DNA from: Eledone cirrhosa | Lineage: Eukaryota | Reading direction: 5' to 3' | NCBI GenBank assembly: GCA_964016885.1 | Contig: OZ024760.1 | Coordinates: 26,474,001-26,538,000 of the forward strand | Length of the DNA: 64,000 nt | In this document: positions 16,457-18,752 of the stretch, piece after piece | Layout of the letters: each line of letters opens with the position of its first letter | How positions within the stretch are numbered: position 1 is the first letter of the stretch | The notes under the pieces: model-generated | What the model was told of the DNA's origin: nothing | The model's input: only the letters and a program-made list of their open reading frames with translations | Databases searched by the model: none | Made by a program: the position numbers and the translations under genes

Positions 16457-16751
16457 TTAAAAACAAATAACGAAACGAAATTAAATTTCGTTTCGCTTCT
16501 AACTCACTTTTGTATGACTGACGCTTAAACAATTAAGTTAAAAGTGTACATCTACATATGTATACTGAAATACTAGTATGCATATAAATACACACATGTA
16601 TACATATGTACATGTACTGAGTTTTTCACTGGACACTTTACTGTGAGTGTCCAGCTAGTCTGTATGTAACCAAACAGACAAACCGGGTTTTAGAGTCATA
16701 CGGGTTTTCAAGGAAACACATTTCCTCTATTCTCCAGAGAGCCAGACAGGA

Positions 16752-16794
16752 ATATTGGACTAGTTTCGATGTTGTTACATCTCATCAGCAATAT
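16752..16794 (-). ncRNA. Canonical minimal type I hammerhead ribozyme, copy 1
   Basis: Reverse complement is identical to 17498-17540. Confidence 0.9.
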
Positions 16795-17497
16795 ATACCC
16801 ATCTTCCGGCTTCTCTAGAGAATCGTAAAAGCACATATCGTTATATGCTTTTTCTATGAAAATTAGTAGTGGGCAGACTAATTTGCATAGAACGTGAGTC
16901 ATTGTACGCACCGGTTCAGCGGAAACGATAAAAACAAATAACGAAACGAAATTAAATTTCGTTTCCCTTCTAACTCACTTTTGTATGACTGACGCTTAAA
17001 CAATTAAGTTAAAAGTGTACATCTACATATGTATACTGAAATACTAGTATGCATATAAATACACACATGTATACATTTCCTCTCTGGAGAATAGAGGAAA
17101 TGTGTTTCCTTGAAAACCTGTATGACTCTAAAACCCGGTTTGTCTGTTTGGTTACATACAGACTAGCTGGACACTCACAGTAAAGTGTCCAGTGAAAAAC
17201 TCAGTACATGTACATATGTATACATGTGTGTATTTATATGCATACTAGTATTTCAGTATACATATGTAGATGTACACTTTTAACTTAATTGTTTAAGCGT
17301 CAGTCATACAAAAGTGAGTTAGAAGCGAAACGAAATTTAATTTCGTTCCGTTATTTGTTTTTATCGTTTCCGCTGAACCGGTGCGTACAATGACTCACGT
17401 TCTATGCAAATTAGTCTGCCCACTACTAATTTTCATAGAAAAAGCATATAACGATATGTGCTTTTACGATTCTCTAGAGAAGCCGGAAGATGGGTAT

Positions 17498-17540
17498 ATA
17501 TTGCTGATGAGATGTAACAACATCGAAACTAGTCCAATAT
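17498..17540 (+). ncRNA. Canonical minimal type I hammerhead ribozyme, copy 2; predicted cleavage after 17534
   Basis: atattg-CTGATGA-gatgt-aaca-acatc-GAAA-ctag-TC-caatat: 6-bp stem I, 5-bp stem II with G-C closing pair, palindromic ACUAGU stem III, GUC triplet. Confidence 0.92.
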
Positions 17541-17974
17541 TCCTGTCTGGCTCTCTGGAGAATAGAGGAAATGTGTTTCCTTGAAAACCCGTATGACTCT
17601 AAAACCCGGTTTGTCTGTTTGGTTACATACAGACTAGCTGGACACTCACAGTAAAGTGTCCAGTGAAAAACTCAGTACATGTACATATGTATACATGTGT
17701 GTATTTATATGCATACTAGTATTTCAGTATACATATGTAGATGTACACTTTTAACTTAATTGTTTAAGCGTCAGTCATACAAAAGTGAGTTAGAAGCGAA
17801 ACGAAATTTAAATTTAATTTCGTTTCGTTATTTGTTTTTATCGTTTCCGCTGAACCGGTGCGTACAATGACTCACGTTCTATGCAAATTAGTCTGCCCAC
17901 TACTAATTTTCATAGAAAAAGCATATAACGATATGTGCTTTAACGATTCTCTAGAGAAGCCGGAAGATGGGTAT

Positions 17975-18017
17975 ATATTGCTGATGAGATGTAACAACAT
18001 CGAAACTAGTCCAATAT
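17975..18017 (+). ncRNA. Canonical minimal type I hammerhead ribozyme, copy 3; predicted cleavage after 18011
   Basis: Identical to copy 2 and 477 bp downstream. Confidence 0.92.
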
Positions 18018-18752
18018 TCCTGTCTGGCTCACTGGAGAATAGAGGAAATGTGTTTCCTTGAAAACCCGTATGACTCTAAAACCCGGTTTGTCTGTTTGGT
18101 TACATACAGACTAGCTGGACACTCACAGTAAAGTGTCCAGTGAAAAACTCAGTACATGTACATATGTATACGTGTGTGTATTTATATGCATACTAGTATT
18201 TCAGTATACATATGTAGATGTACACTTTTACTTAATTATATATATATATATATATATATATATATATATATATATATATATATATATATATATATATGTA
18301 TATATATATATATATGTATATATATATATATATGTATATATATATATATATATATATATATATATATATATGTATATATATATATATATATATATGTATA
18401 TATATATATATATGTATATATATATATATATGTATATATATATATATATATATATATATATATGTATATATATATATATATGTATATATATATATATATA
18501 TGTATATATATATATGTATGTATATATATATATAAATGTATATATATATATATGTATATATATATATATATATGTATATATATATATATATATATATATA
18601 TATATATATATATATATGTATATATATATATGTATGTATATATATATATGTATATATATATATATATGTATATATATATATGTATGTATATATATATATA
18701 TGTATGTATATATATATATATGTATATATGTATGTATATATATATGTCATAT

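What the first reader, a model, noticed from the sequence alone, without database searches (positions are those of the whole stretch)
16457..18236. Young 471/477-bp tandem and inverted repeat with one perfect hammerhead ribozyme per unit: a candidate retrozyme or circular-RNA replicon
Seen: three identical motifs atattg-CTGATGA-gatgt-aaca-acatc-GAAA-ctag-TC-caatat with every catalytic-core base intact. They lie in near-identical non-coding units between (AT)n tracts, and each unit holds further hairpins (gaaacgaaat-tta-atttcgtttc; ctggacact...agtgtccag). Established: type I HHRs with a tiny palindromic stem III cleave as dimers and mark Penelope-like pLTRs and metazoan non-LTR retrozymes, whose tandem transcripts give monomeric linear or circular RNAs. 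Inference: a plus-strand transcript would fold 17498 and 17975 into a double hammerhead through ACUAGU and release a 477-nt monomer (17535-18011), mobilised in trans by a PLE reverse transcriptase. The plus arm starts about 16 nt downstream of the equivalent cleavage position, which fits an RNA template beginning near the cut.
Basis: partly seen in the sequence, partly recalled or inferred. Interest (0 to 1): 0.9.

Follow-up and report, generated by a model that had tools for sequence, protein, structure and literature searches.

The report
Hammerhead retrozyme with two-ended insertions
This is one recent insertion of a protein-free jumping repeat that has over two thousand insertion ends in this animal genome and carries a predicted self-cutting RNA motif; its kind (retrozyme) is known, but its copies land as lopsided back-to-back pairs and carry a one-strand A-to-G mutation bias, which suggests that they are likely copied round and round from one edited RNA unit by a Penelope-type enzyme.

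Summary
Observation confirmed: three identical type I hammerhead motifs in a 471-nt non-coding unit (477 is a private 6-nt duplication), arranged as two divergent arms inside (TA)n. It is one insertion of a large family: 1,622 exact ribozyme cores and 2,334 exact end-plus-TA junctions in the genome. Insertions follow a Penelope (PLE) rule: one arm ends about 227-232 nt after the cut site, the other about 301 nt (39 of 43; 44 of 48 in a set chosen on one end only). Units of one insertion are near-identical; inherited variants are usually in all units (155, against 5 in register) and are A>G-biased on the ribozyme strand (27 vs 8 T>C), unlike later single-unit mutations (51 vs 61). Best reading: a non-LTR retrozyme moved in trans by a PLE enzyme, likely from a circular, ADAR-edited monomer. 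Not supported: independent RNA replicon; the 5' end at +16 as a cleavage footprint (13 of 126 vs 8 expected, p=0.057). No partner PLE found; no RNA data. The scan noted the same system, and probably this family, on other DNA of this genome. New member of a known kind with useful mechanistic evidence.

The parts
15023..16456 (.). left (TA)n-rich tract, likely the target
   Evidence: 82 of 86 outer flanks of two-arm insertions hold TATATA within 20 nt
16458..17076 (-). inverted arm, 619 nt, unit positions u153 to u471 then u1 to u300 (long 'T' end)
16458..16530 (-). asymmetric 'tail' of about 73 nt (u228-u300), present on this arm only; holds the GAAACGAAAT..ATTTCGTTTC hairpin
   Evidence: tail concept PMC8557442, PMC11167929
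16752..16794 (-). type I hammerhead motif, single copy on the minus strand
16872..16889 (-). U6-like upstream motif TATGCAAATTAG..CC
17077..17079 (.). head-to-head junction of the two arms, 3 extra bases
17080..18237 (+). plus arm, 1,158 nt, u17 to u471, a full unit, then u1 to u227 (short 'S' end)
17403..17420 (+). U6-like upstream motif, with a TATA-like box at 17445-17452; candidate internal promoter (inferred)
17498..17540 (+). type I hammerhead 1; predicted cut after GUC at 17534; palindrome ACTAGT 17528-17533
17535..18011 (+). predicted monomer (477 nt = 471 + private 6-nt duplication near 17804-17815); GC 36%, longest open frame 90 codons
17880..17897 (+). U6-like upstream motif, second plus-strand copy
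17975..18017 (+). type I hammerhead 2; predicted cut after 18011
18238..18745 (.). right (TA)n-rich tract

Best explanation
This is one young insertion of a non-coding hammerhead-bearing repeat family (an animal non-LTR retrozyme) whose copies sit in (TA)n as two back-to-back arms with one short and one long end, and which is likely copied by a Penelope-like element's reverse transcriptase/endonuclease from a single, probably circular, RNA unit. Shown by sequence: family size, TA context, the two-end rule, homogeneity within insertions, A>G bias of inherited changes, precise junctions at the cut site. Inferred steps: (1) transcription from an internal snRNA-type promoter starting about 20 nt before stem I; (2) double-hammerhead cleavage after GUC and host ligation to a ~470-nt circle; (3) occasional A-to-I editing of this highly paired RNA; (4) a PLE enzyme nicks both strands of a TA tract and primes two cDNAs on the same RNA at two internal sites about 70 nt apart (u227-232 and u301), neither being the ribozyme cut; (5) both cDNAs run on for a variable number of rounds and are joined head to head through microhomology; (6) some arrays later grow by DNA-level block duplication.
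For: 1,622 exact 33-nt cores, control 0; 2,334 exact long-end+TATATA junctions, control 0. One short plus one long end in 39 of 43 two-arm insertions, 1 short/short, 0 long/long; in 79 loci chosen on the long end only, 44 of 48 complete second arms end at u220-235 and none at u301. Most junctions between arms overlap by 1-23 nt. Within-insertion distance 0.8-0.95% vs 2.2-3.3% between insertions. In 83 two-arm insertions, 155 derived changes are in all units, 5 are shared in register by part of the units, 317 are single. Rare inherited changes: A>G 27 vs T>C 8 (p=6e-4), C>T 8 = G>A 8; singles 51 vs 61; 21 vs 3 in the set chosen on the end alone; not explained by structure selection (pair-breaking 24 of 46 vs 263 of 505); 5' U in 14 of 27, p=0.024. 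462 of 463 cut-site junctions without an indel. 6 of 13 hammerhead pairs change on both sides in sister families. Double-hammerhead fold -186.9 vs minimum -188.7 vs two single hammerheads -171.9 kcal/mol. PLE ORFs (RT + GIY-YIG, up to 938-1,096 codons) are in the genome and one HHR-bearing family shows the same two-end logic in TA.
Against: No partner PLE with this unit as its pLTR in 1.57 Mb fetched. Long arrays show DNA-level block duplications (L116, L121, L125, L154, L158, L225), and with them included private variants at intermediate frequency (43) outnumber fixed ones (17), so homogeneous DNA-expanded masters are a real alternative. Three insertions (L098, L112, L230) show in-register variants expected of multi-unit templates. 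The A>G bias alone is not significant in the 63 earlier loci (11 vs 5, p=0.13) or among strictly private changes (13 vs 6, p=0.11), and the 3' G preference of ADAR (recalled) is absent. The dimeric stem III has a pairing probability of only 0.01-0.02, and a transcript of the whole insertion traps the first ribozyme in a 600-bp hairpin. No measurable constraint on the ribozyme within the family. 8 of 9 predicted Xenopus retrozyme dimers did not cleave in vitro (10.64898/2026.07.22.740005); PLE ribozyme cleavage was not needed for insertion in vitro (PMC11167929). The tail (about 70-75 nt) is longer than the usual 30-40 bp.
Confidence: 0.62

Rival explanations
1. Same retrozyme and same PLE enzyme, but the template is an uncleaved linear multimer read through a few homogeneous tandem arrays that were expanded at DNA level; the ribozyme and circles are by-products.
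For: Block duplications in long arrays; perfectly homogeneous long arrays exist (L170, L183, L123); in-register variants in 3 of 83 insertions; unprocessed RNA was the dominant substrate for the Anolis PLE in vitro (PMC11167929); precise junctions fit this too.
Against: Of 52 well-covered insertions only two pairs share a consensus; most differ from the nearest by 1-8 fixed changes. An RNA-stage A>G on a linear multimer would first appear in one unit, yet singles show no A>G excess (51 vs 61; about +26 expected by my hand arithmetic if private changes are one generation old, about +9 if three).
Confidence: 0.22
2. The unit is simply the pLTR of an autonomous PLE, and these are truncated ends of that element.
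For: PLE-type inverted arms, tail and TA targeting; pLTR-retrozyme homology in Xenopus.
Against: 80 of 80 loci fetched by the 3' end continue into more units, an inverted arm or flank, never into an ORF; arms hold up to 15 or more head-to-tail units; no similarity to the 3' ends of 26 PLE ORF copies (output partly cut).
Confidence: 0.07
3. The enzyme copies a cleaved linear monomer and jumps from its 5' end to a 3' end again and again, without a ligated circle.
For: Slight excess of 5' ends just after the cut (13 of 126 vs 8.0; 12 of 86 in the biased set, p=0.009); explains the monomer bottleneck equally well.
Against: 462 of 463 junctions across the cut carry no indel and unit-specific indels are not concentrated there.
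Confidence: 0.07
4. An independent viroid-like circular RNA replicon that is only occasionally written into the genome.
For: Compact, strongly paired ~470-nt unit with a ribozyme; mussel retrozyme circles differ from genomic copies (PMC7229834).
Against: No antisense hammerhead; no T>C excess; thousands of genomic insertions with PLE ends and a conserved U6-like DNA motif.
Confidence: 0.02

Closest known systems
Animal non-LTR retrozymes (Cervera and de la Pena 2020, PMC7229834: passages and Discussion read; Li, Clavereau and Pollet 2026, 10.64898/2026.07.22.740005: parts 1-3 of 5 read)
   Same: Non-coding tandem units of a few hundred nt, GC under 50%, one type I hammerhead per unit, thousands of dispersed copies, PLEs in the same genome.
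   Different: Unit 463-477 nt is above the 170-400 nt of the 2020 paper but within the 51-972 bp of the 2026 one. In the parts read neither describes inverted two-arm insertions, a fixed pair of 3' ends or TA targeting; Li et al. favour local amplification of a pLTR by unequal crossover. No pLTR homologue was found here.
Insertion units of endonuclease-positive PLEs (Craig et al. 2021, PMC8557442, passages; Frangieh et al. 2024, PMC11167929, parts 1-2 of 4; Cervera and de la Pena 2014, PMC4209133, passages)
   Same: Inverted 5'-truncated copy next to a partial tandem, a tail on one end only, two internal RT start sites, AT-rich or (TA)n targets, hammerhead with palindromic helix III.
   Different: No ORF; tail about 70-75 nt rather than 30-40; start sites 227-232 and 301 nt after the cut; many full units per arm.
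Newt satellite 2 (Coats, Zhang and Epstein 1994, seen only as cited in PMC2220036; the paper itself was not held)
   Same: Hammerhead tandem repeat with an internal snRNA-type promoter.
   Different: Here the motif resembles this genome's U6, not U2, upstream region; TATA spacing is 42-43 nt vs 47; function untested.

Membership tests
Type I hammerhead ribozyme | Core CUGANGA / GAAA / NUH with three helices | tested here: met
   HH9 E~3e-5 but below the gathering score
Type I hammerhead ribozyme | Covarying stems I and II | tested here: met
   6 of 13 pairs changed on both sides over 9 sequences that stand for about three families
Type I hammerhead ribozyme | Self-cleavage (as dimer) | not testable with these tools
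   fold only
Non-LTR retrozyme | Tandem units with a type I HHR in at least two consecutive units | tested here: met
   17498 and 17975; arrays
Non-LTR retrozyme | Non-coding, no LTR/PBS/PPT, GC under 50% | tested here: met
   longest open frame 90 codons, GC 36%; no LTR structure; PBS and PPT not searched separately
Non-LTR retrozyme | Dispersed multicopy mobile family | tested here: met
Non-LTR retrozyme | Monomeric linear and circular RNAs in vivo | not testable with these tools
   no RNA holder listed
Non-LTR retrozyme | Homology to a PLE pLTR | tested here: inconclusive
   none in 1.57 Mb; the genome has 10,596 GIY-YIG candidates of which 150 were scored
Autonomous PLE | RT + GIY-YIG ORF joined to the pLTR | tested here: not met
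   0 of 80 loci
PLE-type insertion | Inverted 5'-truncated arm and one-sided tail | tested here: met
   39 of 43; 44 of 48
PLE-type insertion | AT-rich or microsatellite target | tested here: met
   82 of 86 flanks
Viroid-like replicon | Ribozyme on both polarities or sign of minus-strand replication | tested here: not met
   (only canonical hammerhead cores were searched on the antisense strand)

The most novel reading that the evidence does not exclude
The genome holds a population-scale fossil record of the retrozyme cycle: a ~470-nt circular RNA, made from its own U6-like promoter and edited by ADAR, is copied by a PLE enzyme dimer from two fixed internal sites at once, rolling round the circle from both sides of a cut TA tract, so that each RNA edit becomes fixed in every unit of both arms and editing is the largest single source of inherited change in the family (27 of 73 rare inherited substitutions).
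Probability: 0.45. Interest if true: 0.72.

Novelty: new member of a known kind. Interest (0 to 1): 0.5.

Why it matters
That animal retrozymes move through circular RNAs copied by PLE enzymes has been proposed since 2014-2020 (PMC4209133, PMC7229834) but, in the parts I read, not shown; how PLEs make inverted ends and tails is called open in PMC8557442. This family gives thousands of young insertions with a strict end rule and an RNA-stage mutation barcode, so both questions can be tested by whole-genome parent-child analysis and by a simple in vitro assay with a defined 470-nt RNA and two predicted start sites. It also points to A-to-I editing as a steady mutagen of a germ-line mobile element.

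Tried and rejected
Partner PLE: GIY-YIG search, 20 long-ORF loci, the 735-codon ORF between two cores in L111 (a nested LINE-type RT), 80 loci by 3' end, profile plus tblastn over 1.57 Mb: none joined to the unit. 5' ends near the cut: significant in the first set, but that set was chosen for full units or intact cores; not significant in the set chosen on the end. Selection on the ribozyme within the family: not significant; apparent constraint on the long end (2 of 90 vs 55 of 556) discarded because 79 loci were chosen on that sequence. Long arrays as proof of rolling circles: rejected, DNA block duplications explain part of them. Template jumping at the cut: not supported. U2 promoters lack the octamer motif within 130 nt (5 loci printed). 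Sequencing runs: no RNA holder listed, which is no evidence on expression; no reads were laid. Atlas look-up of one PLE protein only confirmed the family type. Literature searches found no paper on this family or on A>G bias in retrozyme copies; PMC13282606 (passages) has no mention of ribozymes. Repbase/Dfam and the supplements of the cited papers were not seen and may list this family.

Full report
Observation. The three motifs, the 477-bp period and the 599-nt inverted repeat are as described. The insertion spans 16458-18237 between TA-rich tracts. With u1 as the base after GUC and a 471-nt reference unit, the minus arm runs u153-u471,u1-u300 and the plus arm u17-u471, one whole unit, u1-u227. 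The eight differences among its five pieces are all single-unit, one of them the 6-nt duplication that gives 477. Rfam HH9 matches at E about 3e-5 but under the curated score.

Ribozyme. Stem I (6 bp), stem II (5 bp, loop AACA) and a 2-bp stem III in the palindrome ACUAGU match the canonical metazoan type I motif that needs a second copy (PMC4209133, passages). Sister families of about 434 and 460-550 nt, about 65% identical, keep the core and the palindrome and change stems I and II on both sides (nine sequences, but only about three independent families). A constrained double hammerhead of 17478-18036 costs 1.8 kcal/mol over the minimum and is 15 kcal/mol better than two single ones, but its stem III pairs have probability 0.01-0.02, and a transcript of the whole insertion buries the first ribozyme in the arm-to-arm hairpin. 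Cleavage is therefore plausible only for transcripts that start inside the plus arm, and is untested.

Family. The 3.0-Gb genome holds 1,622 exact copies of the 33-nt core and 2,334 exact junctions of the long end with TATATA; both are lower bounds for their class. Subfamilies differ by up to about 8%.

End rule. Of 66 loci mapped, 5 were dropped or merged (one duplicate, one array longer than the stretch, one nested, one complex, one continuation); of the 61 left, 43 are two-arm inverted insertions, and 39 of these have one end at u226-233 and the other at u299-301. To avoid selection on content I fetched 80 of the first 100 listed long-end junctions (14 were already held, 6 not fetched). After dropping one duplicate: 44 second arms end at u220-235, 4 elsewhere, none at u301, 4 run off the stretch, 27 show no second arm by BLAST, about ten of which show a short inverted stub of the short end by eye. 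This is the PLE architecture of inverted truncated copy plus one-sided tail (PMC8557442, passages), and Frangieh et al. tie the tail to two internal RT start sites (PMC11167929). The long end falls at TTTAT/CGTTT, also in a sister family. Neither end is the ribozyme cut.

5' ends. In the first set 12 of 86 fall within 30 nt after the cut (p=0.009), but that set was enriched for full units. In the end-chosen set it is 13 of 126 against 8.0 (p=0.057), and 96 of 122 arms pass through the cut. A minority of cleaved linear templates is possible; the +16 start here proves nothing.

Template. Units within an insertion differ by 0.8-0.95%, the same within and between arms, against 2.2-3.3% between insertions. 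In 83 two-arm insertions (11 long, truncated or complex ones left out by hand) 155 derived changes are in every unit, 317 in one unit, 5 in register across arms (3 insertions) and 23 in other partial patterns. Private changes fixed in 8 of 8, 9 of 9 and 17 of 17 units occur. Against this, long arrays carry block duplications, and over all 142 insertions private variants at sites with three or more units are 17 fixed, 220 single, 43 intermediate, 3 all-but-one. Junctions across the cut are clean in 462 of 463.

A>G bias. Among 73 rare changes fixed within insertions, 27 are A>G on the ribozyme strand and 8 T>C, with C>T 8 and G>A 8; singles are symmetric (51 and 61 of 556). It holds in the end-chosen set (21 vs 3) and with same-arm units (26 vs 6), but not alone in the earlier set (11 vs 5). 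Selection for pairing does not explain it: other inherited changes break pairs as often as singles do, and C>T, which also leaves G-U, is not raised. The 5' neighbour is U in 14 of 27 (p=0.024); 3' G is not favoured. ADAR neighbour preferences are recalled, not from a call. A-to-I editing of the RNA intermediate is the simplest cause; a strand-biased polymerase error is not excluded. The bias fixes the ribozyme strand as the template strand, and its presence only in the all-units class fits a single unit copied repeatedly. PMC7229834 suggested editing or RNA replication for the heterogeneity of mussel circles and proposed tandem cDNA from circles.

Promoter. TATGCAAATTAGnnnnCC is kept in the sister families and stands at -77 to -79 of 4 of 7 U6 loci printed (three distinct promoters), not before 5 U2 loci. 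A matrix from two U6 motifs scores the unit at 16.4 bits against a maximum of 13.4 in 300 shuffles (post hoc). U6 spacing would put the start near 17,476-17,481, just before the extended stem I. The TATA-like box is 4-5 nt closer than in U6, a T5 run at u295-299 would hinder Pol III read-through (established knowledge), and the motif is not free of inherited changes (4 in 18 positions). This is a lead only.

Partner. PLEs are abundant, and one HHR-bearing RT+GIY-YIG family ends in TA with two ends about 50 nt apart (L076), but none shares sequence with the unit, and no ORF is joined to it in 1.57 Mb. Mobilisation in trans is inferred from the ends.

Comparison and verdict. It works like, and meets the sequence criteria of, an animal non-LTR retrozyme; RNA-level criteria were not testable. 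It is not an autonomous PLE and shows no sign of a replicon. Earlier notes of this scan report the same system on other DNA of this genome, apparently including this family; I reached the end rule, the inheritance pattern, the A>G bias and the U6 motif on my own data, the last three before seeing notes on them. Those notes call the animal an octopus, which I did not test. New member of a known kind; interest 0.5 for the testable mechanistic record.

Noticed in passing
window 26146-27479: Decayed, internally inverted insertion of the sister (434-nt type) retrozyme family with ACTAGT hammerheads.
   Followed up: partly
window 58786-59035 and 14792-14829: Small fold-back element with a different minimal hammerhead (long stem II GTACCAA..TTGGTAC) on both arms; a further copy at 14,792.
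   Followed up: no
window 8438-8479 and 52169-52192: Two more hammerhead-like cores, each with relatives in other fetched loci.
   Followed up: no
L116 (G000:C1:95652000-95661500): Array of the unit longer than 9.5 kb with higher-order repeat structure: a retrozyme turning into a satellite.
   Followed up: partly
L017:369-2791: Units alternate 471 and 453 nt with five linked substitutions over three periods: dimeric circle or DNA-level duplication.
   Followed up: partly
L151, L192, L198, L215, L216, L171, L095: Arm junctions cluster at the palindromic hairpin u253-u264, and several insertions have both arms ending at the same unit position (L177, L218, L222), suggesting fold-back joins.
   Followed up: no
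L261-L272: Sister family whose unit holds an internal (TA)n tract of variable length, giving units of 464-551 nt.
   Followed up: no
L018:1190-2385: One of the few insertions outside (TA)n shows an apparent 11-bp target duplication GGATGTTATAT (read by eye).
   Followed up: no
L184 and L185: Identical insertions 17.7 kb apart, likely a segmental duplication.
   Followed up: no
L061:4309-7122, L062:2488-5019, L063:1775-5062: Long open PLE reading frames (938, 844, 1,096 codons) with RT and GIY-YIG hits; clade not determined.
   Followed up: partly
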